A stretch of 62,254 nucleotides of DNA. It comes from a virus. The stretch spans positions 1 to 62,254 of IMG/VR virus record IMGVR_UViG_3300045988_101293. One strand, 5' to 3'. This document shows positions 4,090 through 57,290 of the stretch, piece after piece; the first letter of the stretch is position 1; every line of letters begins with the position of its first letter. Under the pieces are notes generated by a model that saw only the letters and a list, made by a program, of their open reading frames with translations, did no database searches and was not told the DNA's origin. The translations under genes and the position numbers were made by a program.

Positions 4090-4101
4090 TGTTTTGTTTT
4101 T

Positions 4102-4190: not shown

Positions 4191-4301
4191 GTTGTTAGTT
4201 ATTAAGTAGACTGTTCACTACTGTTTCGATATACGCTTCTGCCGCAATTATATTGCGCTTTCTGCGCTTCTCGAACGCGTGTGTTATATTTTCTATATAC
4301 A

Positions 4302-4556: not shown

Positions 4557-4569
4557 GGCTCATTGATTA

Positions 4570-6358: not shown

Positions 6359-6392
6359 TTTGTTTTGTTTTTTTGAGTGGTTAATACATTTG

Positions 6393-30580: not shown

Positions 30581-30612
30581 CTTAATTTAATTTTATCCGT
30601 CAGTGTTTAGGC

Positions 30613-33612
30613 TCATCGTTGCATGTCGGTCATTCGTGGGGCAAAAGTAATGGTTGTTCCTTGCAAGGTTTCGTTCTGTTTAAATTCGGGAAGGAACAAC
30701 ATCAGTCGGTAGTATTTGTAGCCAGTCCCCCTAAACCCTCTAAGATAAATGTTTGAACTTGACCACACAGGCACCCAGTTGTAAAGGTCGTTACTGCCAT
30801 AAAGTGCTTGCTTTACATCGTCCTTACTGCAAAAAACTCCTCTCTGAATAAGGCTATGCAGTGTTTTATGCACATCGGGATAGCCTAATTTAAATGGTCG
30901 CGTAATGAGGTAGGCTTTTTGCGCTTCAACCACTTTGTCTGACGAGTAGTTGTACACCTTATATTGCGTATGATCTTTGGCTGTACTCACCTCTTTCACC
31001 ATTAAACACTCTTCGTACACATTCAAGTTACTATGAAAACCTTGTGTCATGATGCTCCACATGCCCGAAGCAGCTTCCATCACATACGAATAGTTATGCT
31101 TTTGGTTGTACACTATCAGTCGCCCATGAGGGTAGTCGTATGCAATTCGCGCTCCAGTTGTGAGGTAGGTATAAAGGTCAACCATTTGGGGGACTGCATC
31201 AAGGTGCAATACATTTGTGAAAGCCTTTTGTATAAATGTTGCTTGATGATTGCCTTTGCACGTGTCGTAATCATAAGTGGCAGTAGGGTCGGCAGGCAAT
31301 AAGAGTTGACGCCCCTCACCGCCTAACGAAATTATGCCTTGTTTAGTTACAAACACAACGCTACTCTCCATGTTTGACACGCTATTGGCATCAGATAGAA
31401 TGTCGTATGAAAAAGGTGAGCAATTTTGCAGCGTTCCGTCTGTCCCTACCCCAATAGCATACACACCATCTGTGCAGAAAGCATACAAAGGGTATTGGCC
31501 AAATTGGCCTTGGCTTACTGCACGCGAGTTGCTTGCAAGGGATAAAACAGTTCCTTCACCACATTGTGCGCTATTACCATCTTTAAAAACAAATGGGTTA
31601 TTAACTTCTGAGATTTTTACTAAGTTTCTATTTTCTTCATAATCACGGTTAGGTAATGAATACAAATCATATCCTGGTTGTGTCTGTGTAGTATTAATGA
31701 TGGCATTTTTTATTTCATTTTTCTCATTGAAACAATATGATACATTTAGAAAGTCACTCTGGTTAAGTTGTAGAACCAAAGCTTTAGCATTTACTACATT
31801 TGTAACTTCGGTATCACTACTAAGATTTGGTACAATTGATAACCTATCTGCCTTCGACTCTGGAATTGTTATAAATAAAGGAATGCGCAATGAAGAATTA
31901 TTAAAGTCCTTTGATGTCGCACGAATTTTGCACTTAGAATATGAAGATGAGCGATATTCATTTACTTCAATGTTACCAATTTGCTTTTTATAGTTTCGCG
32001 TATCAAATAAGACTTCGCAAAAAGCACTACTAACATTTCCTGTGTTGATATCAATATACTTCTTATTTATGACGTCTGCATGTGAAGGTGTTGCCTCTGT
32101 AGATGTATTCTTTTCGGAATCTTCTACAAGTGGTGCTTCAATGCTTATGTCAAGGCCGCTCATGTGCATTTTCCTTATATTTGCAGCAACTAATCGTGAG
32201 TTGAAACTATATAACCTTGATGCTTGTATGTTTTGGCTTGAGAAAGAATTATCTGTTAATTGCGTTCCTTCTGTATAGTTTACAAGAGTCTGTTTGTCTT
32301 TTTCAATTATATTATTCCAATCCTTACAACCATCCAGATATTCGCGTATGGGGAAAGAACGAACCAAATAGAAATTTTGAATATCCTTAGCTTCTTTGTA
32401 GCCAAGTTTCTTCTTGAAAACTAATTTAAAATCACTATCATTTGCCCCGTCTAATTTGAGAGTTCTTTCAATATCTAATTCATCCGTATCTATTGTATAC
32501 AAAGGCTTAGATACAAATATATCTATTGAAGCAATTAAGTCCTGCCATTTTCTTAGGTTGTTTAAATTGTTTGATATTTCTGTCGTAGTATCACCATCAT
32601 TCTTACATTCTATTTGATATGCTTCAAATCCAACATAAGCTTCTTTAATGACATATTTTATAAACTTTGTTTTTTCGGTATCTGATGAACTTTCTTCTAC
32701 TGCACCCTCATTCTTAACGATAAGAGTAGGGCTATCATTGGAAGGGAATACTAAAATCGGTGGTGATATATTGATATAATTACCATCATACATTTTCATT
32801 GCATATCTCAATACAACAGGGTACATAAAAAGACCTTTTTTATCAAGTTCTTTCTTTGTCGAATTTACAGCTGATAGTATAAAGTTTTCTGCTATTTCAA
32901 AATTACCTTTTGTTCCTGCAGTAGATTTATTATTGTTGCCCAAACTGGATCTTGATAATCCAATAGACATTTCTTTGCTTGAATAACGAACAAAGTAAAT
33001 GGAAATGCCATCCTTATATATAGTGTCAGAAATAGCCAAAACTGTATTGCAACCTGCATCCGTCCACCCTCTAAATCCGTGATTATATAAGGCTGTCTTG
33101 TAATCTGTATTACCTCCTGCCCATTCTTTACTTCTTAGATTTTGTCTTACTGCTTTAAAATGAATGTTTATGAAGTCTGGTAATCCTACAAGGTACAAAT
33201 AACACGCTCCTTGAGACTGGTATACCAAATGGCATAATTTCCCTTCATTTACAAACGAAATGATTTTACCAGTTGCACATATATCATCAAACTTTTGCTC
33301 TGTCGCTATATCATCTTTTATTAAATTTTCGTCTCCTAATGTGTTGACATTCAATTCATAAGCAGATAATTTGTAAGTTGGGTTTATAGCACCATCACTT
33401 TCAAAACCTATAATGATAGTCTTATCCTCCACTTTATGCACGAACATTGGTTCGAATCCGTCCTTATGATACATAACATCTTTAGGTATTCTCACAGCAT
33501 GATACCCACCATCCCTATACTCCGCATTTACAGCCAACTTCATCTCACCATCTTCGCTCTGGTAATCAGAAGGCTTGGATGTCATACCCTTGTATTCTAT
33601 TCTCTGTTCCAT
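30613..33612 (-). CDS. Large (999 aa) virion structural protein, function unknown
   Basis: Long beta-rich ORF between the small basic protein and terL. Confidence 0.4.
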   Translation of the reverse strand: MEQRIEYKGMTSKPSDYQSEDGEMKLAVNAEYRDGGYHAVRIPKDVMYHKDGFEPMFVHKVEDKTIIIGFESDGAINPTYKLSAYELNVNTLGDENLIKDDIATEQKFDDICATGKIISFVNEGKLCHLVYQSQGACYLYLVGLPDFINIHFKAVRQNLRSKEWAGGNTDYKTALYNHGFRGWTDAGCNTVLAISDTIYKDGISIYFVRYSSKEMSIGLSRSSLGNNNKSTAGTKGNFEIAENFILSAVNSTKKELDKKGLFMYPVVLRYAMKMYDGNYINISPPILVFPSNDSPTLIVKNEGAVEESSSDTEKTKFIKYVIKEAYVGFEAYQIECKNDGDTTTEISNNLNNLRKWQDLIASIDIFVSKPLYTIDTDELDIERTLKLDGANDSDFKLVFKKKLGYKEAKDIQNFYLVRSFPIREYLDGCKDWNNIIEKDKQTLVNYTEGTQLTDNSFSSQNIQASRLYSFNSRLVAANIRKMHMSGLDISIEAPLVEDSEKNTSTEATPSHADVINKKYIDINTGNVSSAFCEVLFDTRNYKKQIGNIEVNEYRSSSYSKCKIRATSKDFNNSSLRIPLFITIPESKADRLSIVPNLSSDTEVTNVVNAKALVLQLNQSDFLNVSYCFNEKNEIKNAIINTTQTQPGYDLYSLPNRDYEENRNLVKISEVNNPFVFKDGNSAQCGEGTVLSLASNSRAVSQGQFGQYPLYAFCTDGVYAIGVGTDGTLQNCSPFSYDILSDANSVSNMESSVVFVTKQGIISLGGEGRQLLLPADPTATYDYDTCKGNHQATFIQKAFTNVLHLDAVPQMVDLYTYLTTGARIAYDYPHGRLIVYNQKHNYSYVMEAASGMWSIMTQGFHSNLNVYEECLMVKEVSTAKDHTQYKVYNYSSDKVVEAQKAYLITRPFKLGYPDVHKTLHSLIQRGVFCSKDDVKQALYGSNDLYNWVPVWSSSNIYLRGFRGTGYKYYRLMLFLPEFKQNETLQGTTITFAPRMTDMQR

Positions 33613-33938: not shown

Positions 33939-34544
33939 TTAAAAAGGTCGCAAAGGTCGTGTAAGCACACCTGTGCGCATGTTCACTTTTCGTTTTGCTT
34001 CGTCAAGCAATGTTTGTGCTTTAATTGCCCACTTTTCAGCAGCGTCCTTGTTGGTTATTGATAGCCAGTCGGCCAAAGCTGATGCCACAAAGTATTCATG
34101 AATAAGTTGCTCTAACAACTTGGCAGTAGTGTTTGAAAACTTTTGCGAAACATTCAATTCAATAACGTAAGTGTCGGATTCTTTAAACAAATCGTCTAAC
34201 TGCATGTCATCTTCACACGGCTCTTTTGTGAAACGATACAATTCTTCAACGCAAATGGCATGCGCAAGGTCAAGCACACGTGTCACGCGGTCAACATTGC
34301 CGTCTTCAGTAATGTCAAAAACTTGGTGCTTTGTGTGCGCATCATCGGTCGGCATTACATCACCTTCAACATAACTCACATTTGCTATGTCGTAAAGTAG
34401 GGCTTCGCGGTCAAACAACAAAGTTACTTTGTGCTTAGCGTCAGAACTATTTGCGCTGCACTGGCAATTTGCAAGTTTTTCAATGCAGTCGGCAGGGCCT
34501 ATAACATAGCCATAAGGCCCATAAATCATCTTTGTTTTATTCAT
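33939..34544 (-). CDS. Head/neck protein, member 3 of a tandem paralog trio
   Basis: C-terminal SALADWLSITNKDAAEKWAIKAQTLLDEAKRKVNMR...RPLRPF. Confidence 0.4.
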   Translation of the reverse strand: MNKTKMIYGPYGYVIGPADCIEKLANCQCSANSSDAKHKVTLLFDREALLYDIANVSYVEGDVMPTDDAHTKHQVFDITEDGNVDRVTRVLDLAHAICVEELYRFTKEPCEDDMQLDDLFKESDTYVIELNVSQKFSNTTAKLLEQLIHEYFVASALADWLSITNKDAAEKWAIKAQTLLDEAKRKVNMRTGVLTRPLRPF

Positions 34545-35145
34545 ATCGCAATTCGTTTTGTTGGGGTGGGGTTTGTTCGGGTGCATGAACACGTGTGGGC
34601 CGTATGCGTTTGTTCATGGCAGTGTGTAGTTCTAACAATGCTGCCTGTGCTGATTTAATGTAGGTTTCAGCTTCGGCTTTTGCAGGTGTTAGCAATAGCC
34701 ACGTTGCAACTGCTCGGTCAGTCATGTAATTGTGCATGGCATGAGCAATGTCGCCACGAACTGAAAGGTTAAAGTTCATTGGCACGCGAAGCATCAAAAA
34801 TAAGGTGTTATCTTCTTTCTCCTCACTTTGCGCTGCTGGCTTACCTTGATAGCCAAACACGAGTGCATGCTTGATTTTGTTTCGCTCTTCTTGCTGCAAA
34901 ATGTTGTCAGCATATCTGTTCGTCTCAACAAGATATTCGCTTAACTCATTTCGTAAACAAGCATACGACTCAGCGAATGAGCGCAAAATAGCGTCTTTGC
35001 GTTCATCGGTCAAGTCCTGCACCTTTGCTGCTTGTTCTGACGTTTCGTCTGTGCGCATTGCATCGCCTATGAGGTGCGCTTTTTGCTGCACATCGTACAC
35101 AAGTTCGCTCATGTACAATTTTATCTCAATCGTTTGTTTTGCCAT
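34537..35145 (-). CDS. Head/neck protein, member 2 of a tandem paralog trio
   Basis: C-terminal RAVATWLLLTPAKAEAETYIKSAQAALLELHTAMNKRIRPTR. Confidence 0.4.
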   Translation of the reverse strand: MAKQTIEIKLYMSELVYDVQQKAHLIGDAMRTDETSEQAAKVQDLTDERKDAILRSFAESYACLRNELSEYLVETNRYADNILQQEERNKIKHALVFGYQGKPAAQSEEKEDNTLFLMLRVPMNFNLSVRGDIAHAMHNYMTDRAVATWLLLTPAKAEAETYIKSAQAALLELHTAMNKRIRPTRVHAPEQTPPQQNELRYE

Positions 35146-35150
35146 CTTGC

Positions 35151-35633
35151 TTATTCGTAATTAGTTTTTTTATACTTCACCTCGGTGGGTTGCTTGCGCA
35201 TTGGGGCTGCACGCATGGTGCAAAGTTTTCGCATTGACAATAAATTTTTTGTTGCCGTTTGAATTTGTAATTCAGCGTCTTGCTTGTTAATGATTGAGAA
35301 CCATTTGAAGAGCGCATAAGAATAAAAATACATCGTGGCTATATCTGTCAATCCAGCTATTTGTGACGTGTCAAAATTGCTCGGCAGTGTGAGCTTTATG
35401 CTTATTCCTGTATCGCTATTCGTTACATAAGGCTGATACGTGGCAAGCATAGATGAAAGGTCGGCTATGGCTTCGTTAATGCAACTTTTCAAAAACGTTT
35501 CATCAACTTCGGTTGTAGCTATTCGCTTGTAGGCTGTTTCGTCTTGCACGATGAGTTTTGCTCCCTCGTAAGCAGTAAATTCATGCAGTTTGTTCAGCAC
35601 ATATTGTAATTGTATGGTAATTTCTTGTTGCAT
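35151..35633 (-). CDS. Head/neck protein, member 1 of a tandem paralog trio
   Basis: C-terminal YALFKWFSIINKQDAELQIQTATKNLLSMRKLCTMRAAPMRKQP. Confidence 0.4.
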   Translation of the reverse strand: MQQEITIQLQYVLNKLHEFTAYEGAKLIVQDETAYKRIATTEVDETFLKSCINEAIADLSSMLATYQPYVTNSDTGISIKLTLPSNFDTSQIAGLTDIATMYFYSYALFKWFSIINKQDAELQIQTATKNLLSMRKLCTMRAAPMRKQPTEVKYKKTNYE

Positions 35634-35725
35634 ATTGTTTTGTGTTTTTATGCAAATATAAAGCACCTTGCGTTGATAGACTTTTTATTTCCGACTTTAT
35701 ATACTTCATTTTTTTAGAATATAAT

Positions 35726-36508: not shown

Positions 36509-39500
36509 CTATTTTTTTTGAGGTTTGTTTTGCTTTGCAATATCTATGATACGTTTGACTATATCTTTGCGCATCTCAATGGTCTTGTTGCTTCTTTCTT
36601 CAGCTTTTTTGGGGTCATTTGAATAGTCTTGCATCCAAAGGTTGTAAAGTTCTTTCATTTCTTTATCTTCTGAATTAACAACTCCCTTTGTCGCTTCTAT
36701 CACTTTTACGGCTTGCTTTTGAATGTCAACTTGTTGCTGCTGCAACTCTTTGTATTTGTCGCTATTAGGGTCAGTTACAGACATTGCCTTTCGCACAGCA
36801 CTTAGTTGTTTATTATATGAGTCCATCATAGTTGCGCTAAAGCCTTCGGGCGAATACATTAAATCATAAAACTTTGACTTGTACTCTGGGGCCTGCAATT
36901 CCTTTTTGTAAAGCGAAAGCAGTTCTTTCGTCTTTTGATATTCATCGTTGTATTTATAAAACTTGCTGGTGATGGCTCTGTCTTTGGTTCTTTCGTCAGA
37001 TGTTTTATAGAAAGAATTAATGATTGGCACATTTTTCAGTTCACGATTATCTTCATTAAAAGGCATTGAAGCTACCTTCATCGTTTGGAACACGAACTTA
37101 CCTAATCCGCCAAAATAGCCTTCAAACAAGTGCTGAATTTTAGCAGGGTTCACGTCCATCACTCCAACATTTGCTTTCTTTACATCGTCACCTCCACCCA
37201 ACTCATTCAGCAAGCGACTTGCCCACACAAGAGCTTGATTAGTACCCTTGTAGGCTTTCGTCCATTCGGGTCGGTTTTTGTTGTATTCAGCGTCTTTGTA
37301 AATGGGTGTGCCTGTGTAATCCTTATTTGTAACGTATGCTTCAACTATGGGCTTTGCGTAACTTGGCACAAATGAGGTTAAGCTGCCACCGCCCTCCATA
37401 AAGTCAACGGGGAATAATTGTGACACTTGTTCAAGCATTTTGGTAGCGATGTCAGTGGCAGTGTATTCCTCATTGCCCGAAAGCACACTTTGCGCCAACT
37501 CTCCTAAGCCATAAAAAGCACGCAACTCAATTGGCAATGGAATTGTTACCCACCCCTTGCCAGTGTAGAAGCACAGATTGTTTCTGCGTACCCAATCGGG
37601 CAAGTCGTAATAGTTTGTATCGTCATCGCCACTGCCTTGTGAAAGAGCTGCCATCAGCATAGGAAGTGCTGTTCCTATGGCAAAGTACAAACCTGCAACT
37701 GCAAGTGTTTTGCCTTTACTCTTTCCAAAAGTTCGGCTTACGTTTGACAAACCTTGAACTCCTGCATTCCAGAATACGTACAACTCTTTTGCACTTTGCG
37801 ACATGTAGGCTTGCATAACGTTTAGTCGGTTTCCGTCCTCCCATTTGCCTGCTGCCTTTGCGCCAGCACCTTTTTTGTTGAAATTAACTGAAATCTCCTT
37901 AGCGTCCCAAATTGATTTTTCAATGCTGCGTCCCATTTCACGGCTTGTTCTGTAAGCTGCAAATCGGCTTGTGTTTTCGGCCCATGTTCCAAGGTAATTG
38001 ATTAAATTGTCAAGGAACTTCAACCACGACTTCGGATTCCAACCACTGCGTCTACTTTCTTTCAGTGCCTTTGCAATCATGTTTTTATAATCGTCAACAC
38101 TGTGCAAGAAGGTATAACCTGTTTCACCACCATTTTCAATAAACTCTTGATACATTCGGTCAACTTTGTCGTTCATGTTAAGTGTTCCCTTGCGTTGCCT
38201 TGTTATCAAACCGAACAAGGTGTAAAGACTTTTGCCCCAATTTTTATTGAACTTCCACGCATACGCTGGCGACTCCTTGGCCCAAACCATGCTGTTTGCA
38301 TAAAAGCTATCGCGTGACAAATTGCTAAGAATGAAAGCTGGGTTCTTTTGCGTGAACATAGCTGCCATGAAATGATTTGTTGATTGGAAGAATTTAATGA
38401 ACGGATTATCCGTGCTGTCAGGATTGGTCTGCCCATTCAATGCTTGCGCTGCTTCGTGGTTGCCGTTTATTGTTAGCACATAATCTTTACCTTGCATTTT
38501 TACATGCACTTGGTGTTCGTTGATGTTCTTACCTACCACCTTGTATTGAATGTCATGAGCTTCGCTCGCCTTTTTGTACTCATCTGGCTTTTGTTGGCAT
38601 AAGGTTTCCATTCGTTGATTGAATGCTTCGACCTTTTGCGCAACAGCATTCGCATCGTCATGCTCATCAAACTCGGCAAAAACAGGTTTCCACTCTTGCG
38701 TTGCAGCATCATAGTGCAAGTAAAGTTGGTCAACGCTCACTGCATCACTTGGGTGGTTCAACACCATTTTTAAAAAGTGTTGCTTCATCTGGTTGCGATT
38801 GCCTTGCATAATGGCAGACTCGGCCATGTTGCCAATCGTTGCTATGGGGTCGTCAGCCTTACTCTTACGACCTTTTGCGCTACGTATGCCACCGCCAAAT
38901 TGGCCTTTTGCATTGCCAAAGTAGTTGTACACCTCGTCACTTGTTACATCGTCAAAACCACGCAAAGGAATGTAGTTTTTAAACATATCAAGTGTGTGGT
39001 GATACACCTCGTCTGTCAAAAGTCCACTTTCATATTGCTTTGTGAGCGAAGCCTTTGTGGCAGCATTCGTTCTGTTCCACAATTCAGATGTGTCGTATTT
39101 TTTCTCAAAGTTTGATGAGGAGTTTTCAGCTATACGTTCTGCTTCGTTCACCATCTCTTTATTTAGTTTCGCAATTTTTATTCTGATACTTTTTTTCGTT
39201 GCATCATCTCGTTCATTGTTTAACTGCTCTTTGAGTGTAGCTATTTGGTCTTGATAGCTCTTTATGCTTGGGTCGTCTGTCGTAAGTTCGGTAAGGCCCG
39301 AATAATCTTTGCTCCTGTACTTTTTGTAACTGGGTGCGTACTTCTCTCTTATGGCCGTGTCGTTTGCCTTATAATCGTCCCAACTGATTTTGCCACTTTC
39401 AAAGTCTGTTTTGTTCTGTTGTGCAGTTGCATCGTTTTTATAAGCCTTCCATGCTGCTGACATCTTTTGCTTATCGTTGGCAAAATCATGTTTCAAGGCA

Positions 39501-42500
39501 TCTCTAAATGCAAGCACTTCATTTCGCTCCAATCCGTGTTTTGCCATCATGTAGTTAGTCACTTGCTCGTGAATAGTACCTTTGTCAAGCAACTCTTGTT
39601 CGGCATCAAGCAGGTCTTTATAGAACGACTTTTTGTACGTTTCCATCTCGGCAAGGTTGGTCGAACTCATTCGGTTCTCGGCCATGTAGGCATTCTCCCA
39701 ATCTTTCAAATCTTTTTCGTTGGGTACAATCGCGTCTTGCAACAATTTTAGTCCCGACATGCTATCCACCCATGCAAGGTTCATTTTATGCTTTGCCGTG
39801 TTTACGCTTCGTTCATATTCATCGCGTGCGCTTTTGCGTTCTCTCTCTTCGCGGTAGTATAAGTTCTGCTCACGTGTTTTTGCGTCAACCGCTTTAGGTT
39901 CGGCAAAGTCGCCTACCTTTAAGTGTTGTTGTCGCCACGTGTCTTCGGCCACTTGATAGATGTTGCGTGCAGGGCCTTCAGCCAAGTTTTTCCAACTGCG
40001 CCACAAAAGGTAACGTAAGTCATTATCGCTAAGTGTTGTTCCGCTAAAGCCAGCAAAGCCTAACTTATGAAGCATTTTAAGGAATGCAAGTTTTAGTTGA
40101 TGCCACCATCGTTTGTTCACATTTTTGAAAGTTCTGTCCTCGGCCATACTTGCCATATATTCCTCTGTGGCTTTTCGCATATCCCAACCATATTTGGCTG
40201 AATTATGGGCTATTTGGCTGCGTGTGGCTTTGTCAGCATTTTTGAAAACGAAGTCAAGGAACTCATTCATTTTCTCTTTACCGACAAGTTCTCTTAAGCC
40301 ATAATGCCCTACGGCTTCATGTAGCATGGTGTTAACAACATCGGCTCGGCCATTATGGTTAGGCAGCACAATGGTGATGCGCCCTGTTTGAGGGTCGTAC
40401 CACCCTTTTGCATTCTTTTTGCGTCCCGTCAGTCCGTCTGTCGAAGTCAACACATCTACATTGCCACCTAAGTGCATTTCGTTTGCTACGGCCTTAGCTG
40501 CTTGGTGCATAGATTTTTCTTGGAGAGAAAGTTGCGATGTATCGGGATTATTCTCTACCTTTGCAGTAGGTGTTGAATTGTTTCGGGACAAAGTTCCGTC
40601 GGTATTCCGTTCTTGCGGTAGTAACAATTCAGCACCATTTTTTATTTTGTTACGTAAGTTGCCATCTCGTTTTATGTGTACAGAACTTACATAATCTTCA
40701 ACCTCTCCATGTTTATTAACTGCTACTATATTATACGTATTACCGCTATTATCGCTCTTAAATCGTTTTATGTATAATGTACTACCATCTTTGTCACGTA
40801 TGGCAAAATCAGCATTTTCAATAGTTGAAAGTACTGCACCTGATATATTTGAACGTTTCTCGCGTATAATTTTATTGAAAACCTCGTCCTTTACTTTTAC
40901 GAGTTCCCCTAAAAATGTTCGTATAGGGTGCTTGAATACTTCTTTAAAACTCTCTAAAGTTGAAATGGATTTTGGCAGACTTTCACTTGTCGGTTCACTG
41001 AAAATATTATCAAGTGCAGCAAGTGCTTCTTCACCTTTCAAGGTTTTAGGCTCGGTTTCTCTGAACCTCACATCTTCCACATTCTCGTCAAAACGCTTCG
41101 AAGGAGGAATAATCTCACCATTATCATCACGCGTAACAAGGTCATTCAATTTGCGGTTATTCTCCACATTCTTGTACTTGTAACCTCTGCCATCGTCAAA
41201 GCCCCACTCACGACTATCGTTTCCGTCCCACCACAACTCACTCACGGGAACCTCATCCTCAATAATGCGGTACTTGCCCTCTAAGCGGTTGTTGCCATGC
41301 ATCTCAGCATAACCCTTTGATGGAGTCACCCAGTCACCATTGCGCAATTTTCCTTCTTTCACAGATGTAGGCACAGCACGATACACTTTCACCTTTACAT
41401 TCTTCTCGCCACGTCTGACTGCGGCTATTGCCTCTCTTATCGCGTTTACCGACTCCACAGCAGTAGCGTCAGTCTGCATGTACTTGCGTGGCTCCTGCCA
41501 ATATTTTTCGTCAACCAACGAATAGCCTAAAGCTATATCTTCAATATTTACATCGGGAGCATTCTCCTCCACATCTTCTCTGCGCGCTGCATCACTCTCA
41601 TAACCAGGGTTAGAGGGTGCGCTCCATGCCCCCACACCTTGATAGTCGCTTTCAGTGTCATCATACCCCTTACGGCGTGCAGCCTCGTCAAGCATCTCAC
41701 GTGCAGCGACCTCGTCACCATTCTCAATCGCATCAAAATAACGCTTGTCAAGTTCCTCGGTTGACAATAACGACATATCTTCTAAGTGAGCCTTGCGTTT
41801 CGCCTCCTCTTCCTCGGCACGTTTGCGAGCTGCCTCCATAACGCCTTGTTCACGCATAACAGCATCAATGTGTTCCTTCCGCAACGTTTCTATGTCGCCA
41901 TAACGTTCAGCCAGTTCCTTTTGTACAGGACGGAACAATTTGCTAAACTCCGAAAGTTTCATACCTCGGTTCGCCACGCGCATTGTGCGACGTATTTCTG
42001 CCAATGCAATATTAGCCTTTTGCAAGTTGCCTGTCTTCATGCCAGACGCATAATCCTTCACCATATCTGCATCCACGCCATGCTCTTTAGCAAACTCTGA
42101 ATAATCATCATCCGTTTCCCTCTCTTGGGGCATTTCACTATTCGCATTTCCACCATCACCACTCATCAAGAAAATTTGATCCTCACGGCTCACATCCTCT
42201 GTTTCGGCTGCAAGGCTCGCTATACGCTCCTCTGGTGTCATATTCATACGATGCTCTACGTTGCGTGATTCTACTTCACCACCAAGTTTTGTGTACTCTA
42301 CATAAGGACTAAATTCAGAACGCGTACTTTCGTTTAAACGGAAATTCTTTATGTCTGCATCAAGACTTCTGTCTGCATACCCCCTTGCAAAGTAATTAAA
42401 ACCCTTCATGCGAGTTTCCTTATCGGGCATCCATTCATCATTATCCATGCCCATTTCCTTGTACTCATCAATTAGGGCTTTTTCCACTGCAGCTTGATTG

Positions 42501-45500
42501 TAATGCTCGCCCATTTCATCTGCCTTGTAACGCAATTCATCAGCCCAAGCACGCGCACGCCACTCCTTTTTAGCAGCATCAAATCGTTCTTGCATAGATT
42601 CTGGATTACCGCCCCTTGCAAAACCCTCAATCTTCTGAATAGCATGCTGCACCTCATGAGCCAATACGGAAGCTATGTCGCCCACATAATTCGTATTGAC
42701 TACAATCGTATGCTCACGCTCATTGTAACTGCCACACACATTTACAGGCAGCTGGTCAGTAAACACCATTTTCACACGCTTCAAGTCGGGATAAGCCTTA
42801 AACAACTCATCGTTCTCCACCCAGTCAGCAAGGTGCGGTTTTTCTCTATTCAGATAGTCTTTCTTGAATTTCTCTTCCTTTTGTGCAAGTTCATCAAAAC
42901 GTTGGTATTCTGATTCCGATAGTTCTTCACCATCAAATATCCTATCAGACAAACCATCAAGTTCCTTGCTCCAAGGTTGCTTTTCACGTGCTTTTTTATA
43001 ACCAGCATCACCCTTACTAAAATACTTCAAGTCGGTGATCTCATAACGCCACTTGCCATCTGAGCCACGTTCCCAACCCGTAGCCATCTTGATAGCCTTG
43101 GCATCCTTCTTGTCGTTCTCCATCTCACGTGCCACACTCAAGTTGTCAAGTCGTGTTGTCACCTCTTCGGCATGGTCTGCACGTTCCGCGCCTTGCTCAC
43201 CAATGAATTGTTCACGAATTTTGTTGTAATCTTCAAAAAACTTACCGCCACCGTAGGATTTCTCAACACCATTCAGTAAATTTGCAGCAGTTATAGATTT
43301 ATCGGAATAGCGGGGGAAGGTCGATGTCAGTCCTGACACGTTCCCATGTTGACCAGCCGATACCTCTGACTTAGAGTTGCTTGGTTCAAGGTTATGACTG
43401 CCTTCAGTTTGACTGAAAGAACCTTCAAGCAACTCTATTTTTGTTGCCTCATAACTATACGCTTTAGGTGTCTCCTTTGTTCTTGTATTCTCCTTCAGCG
43501 TAACCTTAACCCTATACAGCTTTCCGTCCATACGTACTGCGCCATACAATCTGTGTATGGTTACATTGGGATTGATGCCATTCTCTGCCGAACGCACACC
43601 ATCTTCGCCTTTCTTAAAGTCTTCGTGTTGTTCTGCATCCACACTTTCACGGATAACATCTGGCAACACCTTCAGCACTGACAAATGAACGTCCTTGCTA
43701 TCACTCTTATCAACAGCACTTTGCGACAAATACTTGTCAACGGCCGCATTGCTAATACGAATATCCCCCTTTCCACCTGTCTCTTTACTGCTATAAGTGC
43801 GTGCTATATGCTCCTTCGCCCAAGCCTTAGCTTCGGCATAATTCTTAAAGCCATGCTCGGCCTTAGCTGCCACTATATTGATACGCGTTTCAGGACGAAG
43901 GCTCTTGCCACCGTCCATCATACTACGAGGATCCACCCCGTCAAGCAAATCCTTCATCACTTGGTCGGCAACTTGTTCTGCACTGGTGTAGTGAATGTGA
44001 AGGAAATCGGCCACTGCCTTCCAAAACTTTTCAATGGCTTGTTTTACACGATGCATGGCATTCATGGCTGTGGCTTTGTCAAACACATTGCCATTGCTTT
44101 TAGCTATATCATCCATCTCCTTACGCAAGCGCTCTGCACCTCTGCGACCTGAATAAGTGGCTAACACTTCATCGGCTATCTCATCATCTGACTTTAGTTC
44201 TGGATAGAGTTTCTTCACTTCTTCCCAAACTGATGTGCCTTTCATTAAGCCTACCACATTCTGCCATTCCTTTGCGTTATTTGCCTTCAATGCACTCGCC
44301 CATAGGTGCGCATATTCATGCACTGGAGTTTCACTCGTTGCCACCTTGGGATCTATATAGATTTTTCCACCTATTGTAAAACCATAAGCCTCGCCATTCT
44401 TTGTTTTGAAGAACCTCACGTGATCTGTTATCTTCGCGTCATTCTCGTTGAAGATAACATAATTCTTGGCGCCATCCTCACGGCCACCACGCATATTGTC
44501 TGCAGGGTATTTGATGCCAATATAGCCTAACTCGGCCAATGTTTGTGATGCTTTCTTGTCACTGCCAAGAGCCTCCTGCAATTCCGCATACAAATCAGCT
44601 CCTGTCGCATTTGGGTTCAAAACAACGGTGCTTTTTCCTTTCTCATATCTGGCAGGGCTATCCTGCACCCTCTCAAAACCATTACTCTCCAAAAAAGAGC
44701 CTACGTCTTTCAGTAAAGATTCAGCAGGGTGACCATTCCAATCCAGATAATTCTTACCTTTGTCGTCGGGAATTTCTATGGTGTAGAGGTGACTTTTAGG
44801 CTTTCTGATACGAATGCCTTTTAATGAGAGTAAGGTTCGTGCTGCCTTAATTTTCCCCTCCGCATAGTTTCTTGTATCGCCTAGGCTTTGATAAAACAGG
44901 TTTTTATATCGAGCCAAATCGCCTTTCTTCAATATGTCTTTGGCTCTTGTTACACCATATCGTTCAAGATTGTACATGAAGTCATTAAGCATATTCTCGT
45001 TCCAGTCTCCTATCTCGCCCAGTACATAATCATGAAATTCATCGGAAGACATTTCTTTACCACCATATAAATATGTTGGCTTTTTGCTGGTGCTTTCGGC
45101 ATACGTTCTACCAATGCCCTCTACCTCTGTCACATAAGTACCCCAGCCATACGCCTGAGCACCTTCTCCCTCGCCCATATGGGAATGGTCGAAGTGGTCA
45201 AAATCGGCACCGCTGCCGTGGTAAACGCGTTGCTCACGAATCATGTCTTCGTTTACCTCTTCACGTTCTGCAAGCCCCGTTGTATCTTTAAAATCTCCAC
45301 TATAAAGAGATTGCTGAATAGAACGTACAATTTCAGCTAAAGGTTTCCCCTCTGCCCTTCTTAACTTTATAGAATCGTAATAATACTCAATAATATGAGC
45401 ATTACCATCGTTCTTTATCTTTTCATTAGGCTTTGGAGATATAACTATGCTAATACCATTATCACGGCCATTATAGTCAAAGCCCGACACATGTGCATTA

Positions 45501-53235: not shown

Positions 53236-54270
53236 TCAGTGTCCGTTAAATCCCTTTACTACTTTTTTCTTTTTATGTTCAGTAGGCTTAGGCTGCGGTT
53301 TGGGTTGTTGCCTTACTTGTCGCCCTGCTGAATAAACGCGTGTGTTTTTTACTCGCTTCACTTGGCCCGTTGTACCATCTACAACAGTACCAGACGTTTC
53401 AGTTTTTGGATAAGTTCCGCCAATGCGTTCTGTTTCTGAAACCGCTTCGTCACGTGTGTAAACGTGGTTTACCACATCACCATCTTTATTAAACACAGGG
53501 TATTTGGGGGTTGAACCCTTGCCACCGCCTTTGCCACCACTACCTTTTCCGCTACCAGCCTTATTGGCTCTTATTACGGATGCTGCTGCGGTGGTAGTTG
53601 CAGCATTGCCACGTTTTTGGTTCAATTCAATTTGCGACTTTTGCACGGCTGGCTTACCCTCCTCCGTCACCTTGCGAGCTTCATTCAATCCTTGCTGAGT
53701 TTCTTGCGTCTTAACATAAGCATTAGCCTTAGTTCTGTCGTTCTCGTTCTGTGCATTGCGTCGGTTAATGAGCGATTGAAGGTTGCGGTCTTTCTGTGCC
53801 AAATCAATCAATGCCTTGCGTGCCGTATAATCACGATTGTTGAGGTTGAGCATGGCCTTGTCATAGACATCTTTTGCCTTTGCTCTGCGTGCCAAATAAT
53901 CGTCATATCGCTTTGTGTAAGCATCGCTTAAAGGTGTGGCCGTTTTAACGTTTGGGGTGGGGGCATAACCCTTAGCTGCCCCAATTCGTGCAAGGGCCGA
54001 AATGCCATCACCTATCGAAGCAATGAGGTTGTTGCGATACTGCCGTTTGCGCTCCTTTCGTTCCTCCTCTTCATTGTACGATGCGTTCAGCCTATCGCGC
54101 TCCTTTTGCAGCGTGTCAAGGTAGTCAAGCAACCCACCTGCATACTGCTGCGTGGTGGCAGGAGTGGGCGCGTTTGTGTCGGTGCGTAAACTATCAGTCG
54201 TTGGTTGAACAATGGGTTCGCTCGCTGATTGCTCCACCTTGTTTTTATCTTTTTCGTCAGTGTCGGTCAT
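53236..54270 (-). CDS. Lys/Gln/Gly-rich low-complexity internal-virion-like protein
   Basis: 344 aa with coiled and GSGKGSGGKGGGKGS tracts. Its stop abuts the start of the giant ORF (2-nt gap) and its start overlaps the stop of 54267..54908 by 4 nt. Confidence 0.4.
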   Translation of the reverse strand: MTDTDEKDKNKVEQSASEPIVQPTTDSLRTDTNAPTPATTQQYAGGLLDYLDTLQKERDRLNASYNEEEERKERKRQYRNNLIASIGDGISALARIGAAKGYAPTPNVKTATPLSDAYTKRYDDYLARRAKAKDVYDKAMLNLNNRDYTARKALIDLAQKDRNLQSLINRRNAQNENDRTKANAYVKTQETQQGLNEARKVTEEGKPAVQKSQIELNQKRGNAATTTAAASVIRANKAGSGKGSGGKGGGKGSTPKYPVFNKDGDVVNHVYTRDEAVSETERIGGTYPKTETSGTVVDGTTGQVKRVKNTRVYSAGRQVRQQPKPQPKPTEHKKKKVVKGFNGH

Positions 54271-54908
54271 AATGTAGTTCCGTTAATTCGCTTCAAGTAT
54301 TCATTTGATTGCTGATTGGCAAGTACTTCTGATAAATCTTTCGTCCTTTGCCACGTCTGCATTTCTGCTGGTGTAATTGATGGATCATTCACCTTTGCTT
54401 GCTTTTGTGGCTTACTATCGATCGCATTTGCCATTGTGCCTATGGCCGAAATGGCTTGTGCGCCAGTGTCGGCAATGTTCTGTGCGCGTTCCGACTCCAT
54501 CTCTCCAAGTTCCTTGTTGATAGTCCTGTCCTGATTACGATAACTCTCTTCCACTTGTTCCTTGCGAGCTTCGCCTTGCGCTGCAATGGCACTGGCAGTG
54601 TCGCTCATGGCCTTAGCATTAGCCTCTTTGGTGGCAGCAACACTCTCTTCAGTTCCACCCACCACGGCTTGCGTTCCTGCTGCTTCGCGGTTGCGATTGC
54701 GAATGGCTTCTTGCGTTTGCTGTAACAAACGTTGTGCATCAGCGCGTTGCGTTGCGTCCTCATTGTAACGTCTGCTGTACCATGCTTCGTTTTCAGCCTT
54801 TTCACGTGCCAACTGCTTTTTCTTTTTACGTGCAGCTTGTGCCGATTTTATGCCACTAAAAATAGAACTGCCTATTGCAGTAGCAGCACCAATAATTGCT
54901 CCAATCAT
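54267..54908 (-). CDS. Internal-virion-like protein with an N-terminal glycine-zipper TM helix
   Basis: MIGAIIGAATAIGSSIFSGI followed by a charged coiled region. Confidence 0.4.
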   Translation of the reverse strand: MIGAIIGAATAIGSSIFSGIKSAQAARKKKKQLAREKAENEAWYSRRYNEDATQRADAQRLLQQTQEAIRNRNREAAGTQAVVGGTEESVAATKEANAKAMSDTASAIAAQGEARKEQVEESYRNQDRTINKELGEMESERAQNIADTGAQAISAIGTMANAIDSKPQKQAKVNDPSITPAEMQTWQRTKDLSEVLANQQSNEYLKRINGTTL

Positions 54909-56463: not shown

Positions 56464-57290
56464 TTATCGCTTAATATTCCAAATTGGTTCAGAACCACCA
56501 CCTACCATGACATCAATGTTGGCACCGTTCTTGTTCGATACGGTCTCAATCCATTTAAGATTGATGAATTGAGATGCGGTTAAGTTCATTTCTTGCATAT
56601 AAGCCTTGTCGGCCTTAGCCTTTTGTCTTTCAGCTTTTTCACGTGCAACTTGAACTTCGTATTCTCGTTCTTGTGTTTGTTTTGCTTGAACAACCTTTGC
56701 AGTTCTGTTCATTTCGCCAAGTTGTTCCTTGTTAGGGGTAGCCTTACCTATGATTACCTCTTTAATAACAACTGGCATTTCTTTCTGTTTTGAAAGTTGC
56801 TTGACGTATTCTCGCATTTGCGTAAGAATTTTATTGTCTATTTCGTTCAACACGGAACGATTCGACATTAAATCAAACGGAGAATGTTGCGATATGTGGT
56901 CGCGGACAAGGTTACAGAAGTAGTTATACAAGTTTACGTTAAACCAATCAACTCCAAGTTCTTTACAAGGATTGGAGACTTTCCTTTCTCTATTTGTGTG
57001 ATGATAACGGAGTGAAAGTCCAATGGTGTGTTATCATCTGAAAACAAATCGTCTAATGTTATCTCATGGCGAACAGGTACGATTTTGATAGGTATAGCAT
57101 CTGTCGTTAGTGCGCACCATGTTAGTCCAGAAGACACAGGTATATCGTCAACTCCACCATGCCCAAAGAACCAAGGGTGCTTAATAAGCACGGCTTCTTC
57201 ATCAGCTTCTGGGCGAACTCCACTGCATGAAGTATTCATTAGCGATCCTAATACGATTGCTGCTAAAACAGAAAGTTTAATCTTTTTCAT
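56464..57290 (-). pseudogene. SPFH/Band-7-like lipoprotein split by a 1-nt frameshift near 56952..56957
   Basis: The N-terminal ORF (lipoprotein signal MKKIKLSVLAAIVLGSLMNTSC) ends ...SPILVKNLELIGLT*. The -1 frame reads ...KELGVDWFNVNLYNYFCNLVRD and continues as the second ORF, which has the SPFH-type C-terminal region. Confidence 0.55.

What the first reader, a model, noticed from the sequence alone, without database searches (positions are those of the whole stretch)
36509..53233. Single 16.7-kb ORF (5,574 aa, about 27% of the genome) with a polyvalent multi-effector architecture
This is one uninterrupted minus-strand ORF. Read by eye it is a mosaic of modules. (1) An N-terminal duplicated motif (NLYEALKGDFDLGTAEQFEKSM / NLWNAIHEDYDVGTFEQFEKDM) followed by a Q/P-rich linker. 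(2) Several small beta-barrel-like repeats. (3) A ParB-like block. (4) An acidic pyrophosphatase-fold-like block. (5) An HGS...GWGTY ADP-ribosyltransferase-like signature. (6) Three independent HExxH zincin motifs. (7) A C-terminal region of about 1,300 aa with a hydrophobic helix. Strings of unrelated enzymatic domains in one packaged protein define the 'polyvalent proteins' of phages and conjugative elements, the class that includes P1 Dar-type anti-restriction cargo. This example is extreme in size for a 62-kb phage. The gene lies between internal-virion-like proteins and the head genes, so it is probably packaged and ejected to disarm host defences. The combination and order of modules may be undescribed.
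Basis: partly seen in the sequence, partly recalled or inferred. Interest (0 to 1): 0.85.

Follow-up and report, generated by a model that had tools for sequence, protein, structure and literature searches.

The report
Giant multi-enzyme phage ejection protein
One gene filling 27% of this temperate gut-phage genome encodes a 5,574-residue "polyvalent" protein, most likely packed in the virus particle and injected with the DNA; this kind of protein is already described and turns out to be common in gut metagenomes.

Summary
The ORF is real: 36509-53233 (-), 5,574 aa, uninterrupted, 26.9% of a complete 62,129-bp genome. It is under purifying selection (dN/dS 0.2) and intact in more than 60 independent assemblies.

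Pfam places it among the phage-type polyvalent proteins of Iyer et al. 2017, with ddrB-ParB, InPase, LPD3, LPD23 and LPD38. ART-PolyVal is sub-threshold here but matches 45 of 53 homologues. There are two HExxH motifs and one HExxxH, not three HExxH. The beta-barrel repeats could not be confirmed.

The protein has a near-invariant N-terminal part (1-1516), a central cassette array (1517-4237) and a C-terminal helical module (4238-5574).
- The C-terminal module occurs in about 7,000 protein clusters, at the C-terminus in all of the best 150 matches listed.
- It matches VT2-Sakai orf71 and Burkholderia JC1 gp69. Hardies et al. class VT2-Sakai orf71 and BcepMigl gp69 as T7 gp16-type internal virion proteins. 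JC1 gp69 was found in virions by mass spectrometry.

Most likely this is the gp16-analogous ejection protein carrying passenger effectors that its own zincins release.

Size and architecture are not unique. Bacteroides phages BKO1-TP3 and BS-TP4 carry 5,553- and 5,391-aa counterparts, and the window's architecture is the commonest of about 29 population variants.

Verdict: a new member of a known kind. Two modest extras are cassette slots and a conserved N-terminal tandem motif that may be a capsid-targeting signal.

The parts
36509..53233 (-). Whole ORF, 5,574 aa plus stop codon: polyvalent virion/ejection protein
   Evidence: dN/dS 0.205 against an orthologue. Intact in 63 other complete close homologues.
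53039..53203 (-). aa 11-65: tandem N-terminal motif (2 x ~25 aa, NLYxAhxxDYDhG[TS]xEQFEK); candidate capsid-targeting or docking signal
   Evidence: 13 of 22 residues identical between the copies. phrog_24532, E 1.7e-7. Found in the first ~60 aa of 20 of 133 diverse family giants and nowhere else in 617,795 aa.
52784..53038 (-). aa 66-150: Q/P-rich low-complexity linker
   Evidence: Read directly from the sequence.
49664..52783 (-). aa 151-1190: lineage-specific N-terminal region with Gly/Ala-rich amphipathic stretches (about aa 600-780); function unknown
   Evidence: No Pfam or PHROG hit. 96-100% conserved among close homologues. Only about 20% identity to BKO1-TP3 gp55.
48686..49663 (-). aa 1191-1516: beta-strand-rich region; at most 1-2 recognisable ~50-aa units
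   Evidence: The repeat claim is not confirmed.
46904..48685 (-). aa 1517-2110: coiled coil plus DdrB-like module (Pfam ddrB-ParB at aa 1708-1831 = nt 47741-48112)
   Evidence: Pfam 31.3-35.6 bits, above the 27.6 cut-off. tblastn to P1 DdrB, E 9e-10 to 1e-8 over aa 1779-2092.
46265..46681 (-). aa 2185-2323: InPase (type I inorganic pyrophosphatase-like, polyvalent-protein clade)
   Evidence: Pfam E 3.6e-53, full model length. Similar to the C-terminus of the Pa193 portal gp19, PDB 9b41, E 5.7e-25.
45251..45964 (-). aa 2424-2661: constant linker peptide (ILRDAVIDHMKESGLDVLGT...) plus an unassigned alpha/beta module with an R-L-A-N-H-N-A motif (variable slot J3)
   Evidence: No family hit. AF2 gives alpha/beta with pLDDT about 70-89. 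Replaced by PBECR3 or absent in variants.
44354..45241 (-). aa 2665-2960: ART-PolyVal-type ADP-ribosyltransferase with an ~100-aa helical insert
   Evidence: Pfam 23-28 bits, below the 31.2 cut-off. 45 of 53 homologues match, best E 2.8e-30. H2672, Y2700 and E2930/D2932 conserved.
43904..44353 (-). aa 2961-3110: zincin 1 (HEYAHLW at 2972-2978 plus E3022)
   Evidence: Motif and downstream Glu are at least 90% conserved in 53 homologues. AF2 shows strands followed by two helices that carry them. No Pfam family hit.
43484..43837 (-). aa 3133-3250: LPD3
   Evidence: Pfam E 1.9e-14.
43031..43162 (-). aa 3358-3401: LPD23
   Evidence: Pfam E 2.5e-11.
42374..42853 (-). aa 3461-3620: zincin 2 (HEVQH at 3526)
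   Evidence: Pfam DUF6782 putative metallopeptidase, E 2.1e-5, 24.3 bits against a cut-off of 27. SprT-like is weak. NCBIfam XopG is weak.
41054..41665 (-). aa 3857-4060: unassigned 'YRxVP...GDWxTPS...WWDGND' module, ending in the conserved IIPPSKRF linker
   Evidence: phrog_2579, E 7.1e-19. A second copy sits after InPase in some variants. No Pfam hit.
40523..41053 (-). aa 4061-4237: small unassigned module in variable slot J5
   Evidence: Replaced by MuF_C, a methyltransferase or an LPD3-like module in variants.
40034..40522 (-). aa 4238-4400: zincin 3 (HExxxH, HEAVGH at 4304), the start of the conserved C-terminal module
   Evidence: LHExVxHxGLR is in the consensus of 59 homologues. AF2 shows three strands followed by helices. 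The HExxxH variant is described by Iyer 2017.
36512..40033 (-). aa 4401-5574: helical delivery module. Conserved core aa 4691-5440 includes a TM-like helix at 5175-5200 (nt 37634-37711) and LPD38 at 5206-5405 (nt 37019-37618).
   Evidence: phrog_14770, E 1e-283. LPD38, E 4.5e-44. 6,974 clusters match at E<=1e-3, at the C-terminus in all of the best 150 listed. AF2 pLDDT 79.5, nearly all alpha. 88 BFVD fold matches.
53236..54270 (-). 344-aa gene directly upstream (stop 2 nt before the giant's ATG), syntenic partner
   Evidence: Weak similarity to BKO1-TP3 gp56 and BS-TP4 gp2 in the same position. 94% identical in L006.
54267..54908 (-). 213-aa gene two upstream; possible gp14-like (outer-membrane) ejection protein
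   Evidence: Syntenic with BKO1-TP3 gp57 and BF1-TP2 gp70. Pfam T7_gp14 E 0.0067, and 9.9e-5 for one homologue, both below the cut-off. hhalign against T7 gp14 is negative.

Best explanation
The ORF encodes a phage-type polyvalent protein that doubles as the large internal-virion (ejection) protein of a temperate Bacteroidales phage, possibly a short-tailed one.

Proposed sequence of events:
1. A few copies are made late and loaded into the procapsid. The positionally fixed N-terminal tandem motif may serve as the targeting signal.
2. On infection the protein is expelled through the portal and tail ahead of, or with, the DNA.
3. The conserved helical C-terminal module (HExxxH zincin, one membrane-spanning helix, LPD38) acts like T7 gp16 or the N4 vRNAP. 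It forms the inner-membrane end of the ejection conduit together with the two small proteins encoded just upstream.
4. The central part (aa 1517-4237) is a string of passenger effectors delivered to the cytoplasm. These are a DdrB-like ParB nuclease/NTPase module, a pyrophosphatase (InPase), an ART-PolyVal ADP-ribosyltransferase, LPD3, LPD23 and three unassigned modules.
5. The three zincin modules probably cut the chain into working units, or attack host proteins.
6. The net effect is to blunt restriction and other early host defences and to condition the cell before any phage gene is expressed.

Shown here: the ORF, its domain families, its conservation and selection, the cassette variation, the gene context, and homology to proteins that are virion components.

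Inferred: packaging in this phage, ejection, channel formation, self-cleavage, and every biochemical target.
For: - Domain families. InPase, ddrB-ParB, LPD3, LPD23 and LPD38 are above the Pfam cut-offs. ART-PolyVal is supported through homologues and conserved H/Y/D-E positions. [quoted passage not shown]
- Gene context. The gene lies in the late block with TerL (28448-30580), an SU10_MCP-like capsid protein (25329-26843) and the portal (22840-24831). In BKO1-TP3 and BS-TP4 the counterpart is directly next to the portal gene.
- C-terminal module. It matches VT2-Sakai orf71 (E 5e-26) and Burkholderia JC1 gp69 (E 1e-29). Hardies 2016 lists VT2-Sakai orf71 and BcepMigl gp69 as IVP-D (T7 gp16) homologues carrying passenger domains. 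JC1 gp69 was found in CsCl-purified virions with 51 unique peptides.
- Family pattern. The module lies at the extreme C-terminus of 3,000-6,900-aa proteins in nearly all of the best 150 matches listed, out of 6,974 matching clusters. BFVD fold matches include relatives fused to a lytic transglycosylase, as in T7 gp16.
- Fold. The AF2 model is almost entirely helical, as IVP-D proteins are.
- Upstream gene. The 213-aa gene gives weak T7_gp14 hits.
- Precedents. The N4 giant vRNAP is the third ejection protein. P1 DdrB and DarB are head components, and DarB has a 30-aa N-terminal capsid-targeting signal. InPase is fused to the internal C-terminus of the Pa193 portal.
- Authenticity. dN/dS is 0.2 and more than 60 intact orthologues exist, so this is a real protein.
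Against: - No direct similarity to T7 gp16 (hhalign probability 0.4%) or to any solved structure, by sequence profile or by Foldseek. The IVP-D link therefore rests on a published assignment for homologues, and I could not see which part of those proteins was assigned.
- The T7_gp14 hit of the upstream gene is below Pfam's cut-off, and hhalign is negative.
- The morphology of this phage and of its Bacteroides relatives is unknown. A 999-aa gene of unknown function could be a tape measure.
- The ART and zincin folds were not confirmed by Foldseek. No Pfam zincin family reaches its cut-off.
- There are no virion proteomics for this phage or for its close relatives.
Confidence: 0.62

Rival explanations
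1. Pure head-internal cargo of the P1 Dar type. The protein is packaged and injected as an anti-restriction/anti-defence payload but plays no structural part in the ejection conduit. The conserved C-terminal module would then serve only for incorporation into the capsid or for passage.
For: - Homology to P1 DdrB, which is a head protein needed for Dar assembly.
- Relatives are annotated 'DarB-like antirestriction'.
- No detectable similarity to T7 gp16.
- Iyer 2017 treats LPD38 simply as a phage-specific polyvalent domain.
Against: - The C-terminal module is the most conserved and the most position-constrained part across about 7,000 clusters. This fits a machine part better than a payload.
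- Relatives carry a periplasm-acting lytic transglycosylase.
- Homologues are listed as IVP-D by Hardies 2016.
- A membrane-type helix is conserved.
- No other large helical candidate for a gp16 analogue was seen in the genome.
Confidence: 0.25
2. An unpackaged cytoplasmic multi-enzyme. It would be made late or from the prophage, and would act inside the producing cell, for example in superinfection exclusion, host takeover or lysogenic conversion.
For: - The phage is temperate: integrase at 8993-10207.
- Some homologues of single cassettes lie on contigs of more than 300 kb, which are probably bacterial chromosomes.
Against: - Same strand and tight spacing with structural genes.
- The homologue JC1 gp69 is in virions.
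- A 16.7-kb gene in a 62-kb headful is a heavy cost for a non-essential function.
Confidence: 0.06
3. An artefact: a chimeric assembly, or several genes fused by sequencing errors.
For: - Metagenomic origin.
- At least one nearby gene (Band_7, 56464-57290) carries a 1-nt frameshift relative to relatives.
Against: - 63 other complete, uninterrupted close homologues come from independent ENA, JGI and Logan assemblies.
- Isolated phages have counterparts of 5,391-5,553 aa.
- dN/dS is 0.205 over 5,548 codons.
Confidence: 0.01

Closest known systems
Phage-type polyvalent proteins (Iyer, Burroughs, Anand, de Souza & Aravind, J Bacteriol 2017; PMC5512222)
   Same: - Many unrelated effector domains in one polypeptide, encoded among late genes of a portal-terminase phage.
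- Carries InPase, DdrB-ParB, LPD3, LPD23, LPD38, ART-PolyVal and zincin peptidases, including the HExxxH variant.
- Orthologues differ in domain architecture, as described for H. pylori jhp1044.
   Different: - This lineage's N-terminal ~1,500 aa and three central modules (aa 2424-2661, 3857-4060, 4061-4237) match no Pfam family.
- No MuF, ArdC, helicase or methylase domain.
- The paper does not assign a role to the LPD38-containing C-terminal module.
Bacteroides temperate phages BKO1-TP3 gp55 (5,553 aa), BS-TP4 gp3 (5,391 aa) and BF1-TP2 gp68 (3,633 aa) (Gut Microbes 2025, PMC12694917; GenBank PQ571269, PQ571277, PQ571263)
   Same: - The closest isolated relatives: genomes of similar size, with the giant gene taking about 25%.
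- Same conserved upstream genes.
- InPase is 53-68% identical and the C-terminal ~1,300 aa are 31-44% identical.
   Different: - The central 1,900 aa are unrelated and the N-terminal part is barely alignable (about 20% identity).
- In those phages the giant gene abuts the portal gene. Here three small paralogues, a 999-aa gene, TerL and the capsid gene lie in between.
- The paper does not discuss these proteins.
Giant 'DarB-like' virion proteins of Lessievirus and Ralstonia podophages (Bcep22 gp75, JC1 gp69, 4,515 aa; PMC9144972) and Stx-phage orf71 (VT2-Sakai, 2,806 aa)
   Same: - Share the C-terminal LPD38-type module (tblastn E 1e-29 and 5e-26).
- The giant gene lies at the end of the structural block and is preceded by a mid-sized virion protein gene.
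- JC1 gp69 takes 22% of its genome and was shown to be virion-associated.
   Different: - Only 20-25% identity, and only in the C-terminal ~800 aa.
- Different cargo and different host phyla.
T7 gp16 / IVP-D family of podovirus ejection proteins with passenger domains, including the N4 vRNAP gp50 (Hardies et al. 2016, PMC4819975; Nat Commun 2026, PMC13434306)
   Same: - Works like them in the proposed model: a large, helical, virion-internal protein that follows two smaller ejection-protein genes and delivers enzymatic passengers to the cytoplasm.
- Homologues of the C-terminal module are listed as IVP-D.
   Different: - No direct sequence or fold similarity to T7 gp16 was found here.
- Far more passengers than any characterised member.
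- Membership is inferred, not shown.
P1 Dar system (DdrB, DarB; PMC9024508)
   Same: - The DdrB-like ParB module (aa 1700-2100) is homologous to P1 DdrB.
[quoted passage not shown]
   Different: - No DarB helicase or methyltransferase domains.
- P1 uses several separate proteins, whereas here everything is one chain.
- P1 is a myovirus.

Membership tests
Phage-type polyvalent protein (Iyer 2017) | Two to fifteen unrelated effector or enzymatic domains in one polypeptide | tested here: met
   Five Pfam families are above their cut-offs (ddrB-ParB, InPase, LPD3, LPD23, LPD38). ART-PolyVal and the zincin motifs come in addition.
Phage-type polyvalent protein (Iyer 2017) | Encoded by a phage or prophage with a portal-terminase system, among late/virion genes | tested here: met
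   TerL, portal and an SU10_MCP-like capsid gene are on the same strand within 12-14 kb. An integrase is also present.
Phage-type polyvalent protein (Iyer 2017) | Domains restricted to the phage type (InPase, DdrB-ParB, LPD38) | tested here: met
   All three are present. The restriction to the phage type is stated in the paper.
Phage-type polyvalent protein (Iyer 2017) | Zincin-like MPTase: HExxH (or HExxxH) helix plus a Glu on the following helix, after a small beta sheet | tested here: inconclusive
   - The motifs are conserved: HEYxHLW plus E3022 and LHExVxHxGLR.
- The AF2 secondary structure fits.
- No Pfam zincin family reaches its cut-off (best is DUF6782, 24.3 bits against 27).
- Foldseek gave no zincin hit.
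Phage-type polyvalent protein (Iyer 2017) | Transferred into the host together with the DNA | not testable with these tools
   Needs virion proteomics and infection assays. The only evidence available is that the homologue JC1 gp69 is virion-associated.
ART-PolyVal (PF18760, Tox-ART-HYD2 clade) | Pfam gathering score | tested here: not met
   The window copy scores 23.2-27.6 bits against 31.2 and aligns only to model positions 8-58 of 140. A ~100-aa insert splits the domain. 45 of 53 homologues of the segment match at E<=0.001, and allelic variants reach 32.6-37.4 bits.
ART-PolyVal (PF18760, Tox-ART-HYD2 clade) | Active site with His in strand 1, Tyr in strand 2 and Asp in strand 5 | tested here: met
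   H2672 (VYHGSG), Y2700 (GWGTY) and D2932, with E2930, after the strand NYVIF are each at least 90% conserved in 53 homologues. AF2 predicts strands at these positions.
ART-PolyVal (PF18760, Tox-ART-HYD2 clade) | ART fold | tested here: inconclusive
   AF2 pLDDT is 60-95 across the domain. Foldseek against PDB with the 687-aa multidomain model gave no hit at E<=0.001.
DdrB-like ParB (PF18763) | Pfam gathering score, and similarity to P1 DdrB | tested here: met
   31.3-35.6 bits against 27.6. tblastn to P1 ddrB, E 9e-10 to 1e-8. The SGNGR motif supplies the conserved Arg (read from the sequence).
InPase (PF18823) | Full-length match to the polyvalent-type pyrophosphatase model | tested here: met
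   E 3.6e-53, model positions 1-135 of 135.
T7 gp16 / IVP-D ejection proteins | Profile or fold similarity to T7 gp16 | tested here: not met
   hhalign of the 59-sequence C-terminal profile against T7 gp16 gives probability 0.4%. There was no PDB hit by profile or by Foldseek. Hardies 2016 notes that such links need HMM-HMM chaining within a podovirus-only library.
T7 gp16 / IVP-D ejection proteins | Homology to proteins already assigned to the extended IVP-D family | tested here: met
   The C-terminal module matches VT2-Sakai orf71 (NP_050570) and the Lessievirus giant JC1 gp69. VT2-Sakai orf71 and BcepMigl gp69 are in Table 2 of Hardies 2016. Which region those authors matched is not known to me.
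T7 gp16 / IVP-D ejection proteins | Extensively alpha-helical, virion-internal, and encoded after gp14- and gp15-like genes | tested here: inconclusive
   Helical: yes. The upstream 213-aa gene gives only sub-threshold T7_gp14 hits. Virion location was not tested.
P1 DarB | SNF2-type helicase plus N6-adenine methyltransferase domains | tested here: not met
   No such Pfam hit in the window protein. More distant relatives (P0099-P0120) do carry them. The 'DarB-like' PHROG match (phrog_10089) covers only aa 1528-2493, which is the ParB plus InPase region.
MuF-type head effector fusions | Phage_Mu_F or MuF_C domain | tested here: not met
   Absent from the window protein. MuF_C fills slot J5 in some close variants.

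The most novel reading that the evidence does not exclude
The giant gene works as a population-level cassette system on a fixed delivery chassis.
- The N-terminal 1,516 aa and the C-terminal 1,330 aa stay 96-100% identical.
- At least five defined slots swap, gain or lose effector modules between phages that are otherwise almost the same. The modules seen are PBECR1 a/b, a second YRxVP module, PBECR3, ART insert types, a PBECR5 block, MuF_C, a methyltransferase and an LPD3-like module.
- Conserved linker peptides (ILRDxVIDHMKESGLDVLGTEEGQQVLDMAN; IIPPSKRFxxNxxDxRY) would act as recombination anchors.
- A so far undescribed tandem N-terminal ~25-aa motif, fixed in the first 60 residues of many unrelated family members, would be the capsid-targeting signal. 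If so, it could be reused to load foreign proteins into Bacteroidales phage particles.
Probability: 0.3. Interest if true: 0.55.

Novelty: new member of a known kind. Interest (0 to 1): 0.38.

Why it matters
- Such proteins are probably the first phage molecules to act in the infected cell, so they help decide which gut Bacteroidales strains a temperate phage can establish in.
- This lineage is abundant in public gut metagenomes. It offers a natural series of near-isogenic effector-cassette variants, which could be used to map which module counters which host defence.
- The conserved C-terminal module (about 7,000 clusters) and the N-terminal tandem motif are uncharacterised handles on how multi-thousand-residue proteins are loaded into and expelled from capsids. 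They might also be exploited for protein delivery.
- None of this changes the classification. The class, most of its domains and its mosaicism were described in 2017, and similar giants are already deposited for isolated Bacteroides phages.

Tried and rejected
- Megablast of the gene against 50,697 phage records found no match. Relatives are detectable only at protein level.
- phmmer and profile searches against PDB sequences returned only the InPase/portal match. The weak dihydrofolate reductase hits at aa 4793-4878 (E 0.011; NCBIfam E 0.002) lie inside the conserved helical core, align to part of the model only, and I treat them as chance.
- Foldseek against PDB gave nothing significant for either AF2 model. 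The low-probability transporter and coiled-coil hits were ignored. Multidomain queries probably cost sensitivity.
- hhalign of the C-terminal profile against T7 gp16, and of the 213-aa family against T7 gp14, was negative.
- NCBIfam gave nothing above its cut-offs.
- BLAST self-comparison found no internal duplications. A repeat HMM did not confirm multiple beta-barrel units.
- A cluster look-up gave no organism names.
- Piya et al. 2017 is not held in the library.
- Possibilities considered and dropped:
  - A tape-measure or tail-fibre role: there are enzymatic domains, and no fibre-like repeats were seen.
  - A DarB orthologue: there is no helicase or methylase.
  - A MuF fusion: there is no MuF domain.


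Full report
**Observation**

The window holds one uninterrupted minus-strand ORF at 36509-53233 (ATG start, 5,574 codons plus stop), exactly as reported. The first 125 nt of the window repeat its last 125 nt, and a related contig (L006) reads straight across the junction. The window is therefore a complete circular or terminally redundant genome of 62,129 bp, of which the ORF is 26.9%.

The ORF is a real gene.
- Against an orthologue at about 97% nucleotide identity, dN/dS is 0.205 over 5,548 codons.
- Sixty-three other complete, uninterrupted close homologues (5,461-6,089 aa) come from independent public assemblies.

**What kind of element**

The genome is a temperate phage. It has an integrase (8993-10207), a RecE/RecT-like pair and an endolysin. 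It also has TerL (28448-30580), the portal (22840-24831) and an SU10_MCP-like capsid protein (25329-26843).

There is no nucleotide-level match to any of 50,697 phage records. At protein level the nearest isolates are the Bacteroides temperate phages BKO1-TP3, BS-TP4 and BF1-TP2. A 99% identical fragment sits in a Prevotella sp. MAG, and many homologues come from Bacteroidales MAGs. The host is therefore a Bacteroidales bacterium. Virion morphology is not known for this phage or for its nearest relatives.

**Anatomy of the protein**

Pfam gives hits above the cut-off for five families:
- ddrB-ParB, aa 1708-1831
- InPase, aa 2185-2323, E 3.6e-53
- LPD3, aa 3133-3250
- LPD23, aa 3358-3401
- LPD38, aa 5206-5405, E 4.5e-44

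The DdrB-like similarity extends to aa 2092 in tblastn against P1 ddrB.

The HGS...GWGTY block matches ART-PolyVal only partly and below the cut-off (23-28 bits against 31.2), because a ~100-aa helical insert splits the domain. Even so, 45 of 53 homologues of this segment match the family (best E 2.8e-30) and allelic variants exceed the cut-off. The H/Y/D triad that defines the family corresponds to H2672, Y2700 and D2932 (with E2930), each at least 90% conserved.

There are two HExxH motifs (2972, 3526) against 0.14 expected by chance, and one HExxxH motif (4304). Iyer et al. describe the HExxxH form for polyvalent-protein peptidases.
- Zincin 1 keeps HEYxHLW and a downstream Glu (E3022) in 53 homologues.
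- Zincin 2 gives sub-threshold hits to DUF6782 and SprT-like.
- Zincin 3 is part of the family consensus LHExVxHxGLR.

No Pfam zincin model reaches its cut-off. Foldseek on the two AlphaFold models returned no significant PDB match. The ART and zincin assignments therefore rest on sequence families and motifs, not on a confirmed fold.

The claimed beta-barrel repeats could not be confirmed. Regions with no family assignment are aa 151-1516, 2424-2661, 3857-4060 (phrog_2579 only) and 4061-4237.

**A chassis with cassette slots**

Comparison with 74 close homologues shows that aa 1-1516 and about 4245-5574 are 96-100% identical throughout. The centre breaks at recurrent positions.
- Slot J1 (about aa 1517) is empty here. 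Elsewhere it holds one of two PBECR1 alleles or a deletion remnant.
- Slot J2 (about aa 2350-2424) holds a helical segment here, or a second copy of the YRxVP module.
- Slot J3 (aa 2424-2661) holds the unassigned 'HNA' module here, or PBECR3, or nothing.
- The ART insert occurs in four types.
- Slot J4 (about aa 3107-4242) can be replaced as a block by a PBECR5/PBECR3 segment.
- Slot J5 (aa 4061-4237) can hold MuF_C, a methyltransferase or an LPD3-like module.

Marker peptides distinguish about 29 architectures among 64 complete proteins. The window's architecture is the commonest, at 12 of 64.

Synonymous divergence from one orthologue swings between 0 and 0.26 along the gene, which points to a recombinant history. 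The same constant peptides flank the slots.

Mosaicism of orthologous polyvalent proteins has already been described for H. pylori jhp1044. This is therefore a clean new example rather than a new principle.

**The C-terminal module is the key to mechanism**

Residues 4238-5574 match phrog_14770 (E 1e-283). A search of 1.84 billion representative proteins with aa 4238-5437 finds 6,974 clusters at E<=1e-3 and 1,858 at E<=1e-30. The best 150 are almost all proteins of 3,000-6,900 aa with the module at their extreme C-terminus.

In phage records the module occurs in Stx phages (VT2-Sakai orf71, 2,806 aa), in Lessievirus and Ralstonia phages (JC1 gp69, 4,515 aa), and in Vibrio, Ruegeria and Pelagibacter phages.

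Two published facts bear on it.
- JC1 gp69 is a virion protein by mass spectrometry, with 51 unique peptides, and occupies 22.1% of that genome.
- Hardies et al. list VT2-Sakai orf71 and BcepMigl gp69 as homologues of T7 internal virion protein D (gp16) in the F116 structural group. They argue that such proteins carry 'passenger domains for intracellular function', as the N4 virion RNA polymerase does.

In N4 and its relatives the giant polymerase is the third ejection protein, following a gp14-like and a gp15-like protein.

The AlphaFold model of aa 4238-5437 is confident (pLDDT 79.5, pTM 0.70). It is almost entirely helical, with a small zincin-like sheet at its start. It has no PDB counterpart but has 88 BFVD matches. 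All are C-terminal pieces of large viral proteins, and some of those proteins carry a lytic transglycosylase, RelA/SpoT or a methylase. One strongly hydrophobic helix (aa 5175-5200) lies just before LPD38.

Upstream, the 213-aa and 344-aa genes are syntenic in the Bacteroides phages. The 213-aa family gives weak T7_gp14 hits, E 0.0067 to 9.9e-5, below the cut-off.

Direct hhalign tests against T7 gp16 and gp14 were negative. Membership in the gp16 family is therefore inferred through published assignments, not shown here.

**Most likely mechanism**

The protein is loaded into the procapsid, expelled on infection, and anchored at the inner membrane by its C-terminal module as the gp16 analogue. 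The central passengers reach the cytoplasm and are probably released by the three zincins.

The passengers plausibly do three things.
- The DdrB-like ParB module interferes with restriction, by analogy with the P1 Dar system, in which DdrB is a head protein.
- InPase removes pyrophosphate or nucleotide signals, as Iyer et al. propose. In Pa193 this domain is fused to the capsid-internal end of the portal.
- The ART module ADP-ribosylates host targets, by analogy with T4 Alt.

Packaging, ejection, cleavage and all targets are inferences.

I put 0.62 on this combined model. I put 0.25 on a Dar-like pure-cargo reading without a channel role, and little on an unpackaged enzyme or an artefact.

**An extra observation**

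The duplicated N-terminal motif is not a curiosity of this protein. A small HMM built from it finds the motif within the first ~60 residues of 20 of 133 diverse family representatives, as two copies in 10 of them. It finds none in the remaining 617,795 residues. BKO1-TP3 gp55 and BF1-TP2 gp68 show a looser version by eye.

Because the first 30 residues of P1 DarB suffice for capsid targeting, this motif is a reasonable candidate for the loading signal. This is untested.

**Comparison and novelty**

The protein works like, and is a member of, the phage-type polyvalent proteins. It is not a DarB orthologue, since it has no helicase or methylase, and it is not a MuF fusion.

Its size is matched by BKO1-TP3 gp55 (5,553 aa, 25.7% of the genome) and BS-TP4 gp3 (5,391 aa). 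Metagenomic relatives of up to 7,571 aa exceed it. The paper on the Bacteroides isolates does not discuss these genes.

This is a new member of a known kind. It has three unassigned modules, a well-resolved cassette population and a candidate targeting motif as modest additions.

Noticed in passing
window 1-125 and 62130-62254: The first 125 nt are identical to the last 125 nt, and a related contig (L006) reads through the junction. The window is therefore a complete circular or terminally redundant genome of 62,129 bp.
   Followed up: yes
window 61986-62254 and 1-277: A tandem array with an 18-nt period (about 25 units) crosses the window ends. After circularisation it lies inside a 269-aa minus-strand ORF encoding hexapeptide repeats of the type V-Y/C-G-N/D-A-x. 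Its function is unknown, and it is cut by the window boundary.
   Followed up: partly
window 56464-57290 (-): A Band_7/SPFH-type lipoprotein gene that is intact (275 aa) in relatives L006 and L007 is split here by a 1-nt frameshift into ORFs of 118 and 155 aa. This is either a pseudogene or a sequencing error.
   Followed up: partly
window 33939-35666 (-): Three tandem paralogous genes (171, 202 and 217 aa; phrog_19255 and phrog_35482, function unknown) lie directly downstream of the giant gene. They diverge much faster between relatives (47-72% aa identity) than the giant does (96%).
   Followed up: partly
window 28448-33612 (-) compared with L006: Strong mosaicism around the giant gene. The giant is about 97% identical at nucleotide level to L006, whereas the adjacent 999-aa gene (phrog_32516) is only 43% identical at protein level and TerL is 87%.
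   Followed up: partly
window 3649-3837: Clusters of short direct repeats (periods 6/12 and 30/60 nt) lie inside a gene with a weak replisome-organiser match (3223-4089). They look like iterons and may mark a replication origin.
   Followed up: no
window 4570-6457 (-) and 8993-10207 (+): A RecE-like exonuclease and a RecT-like annealase pair, plus a tyrosine integrase, indicate a temperate lifestyle with the phage's own recombination system. That system could drive the cassette exchange seen in the giant gene.
   Followed up: no
protein P0069 (contig 25.9 kb), aa 4462 to the end: One close relative keeps the N-terminal and central parts but has an unrelated ~1,200-aa C-terminus in place of the LPD38 module. 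This suggests that alternative delivery modules can be swapped in.
   Followed up: no
giant aa 1-65, and N-termini of P0268, P0291, P0299, P0309, P0324, P0335 and others: The tandem N-terminal motif is conserved and fixed in position across otherwise divergent giants of this family: 20 of 133 representatives, with no hits elsewhere in those proteins.
   Followed up: partly
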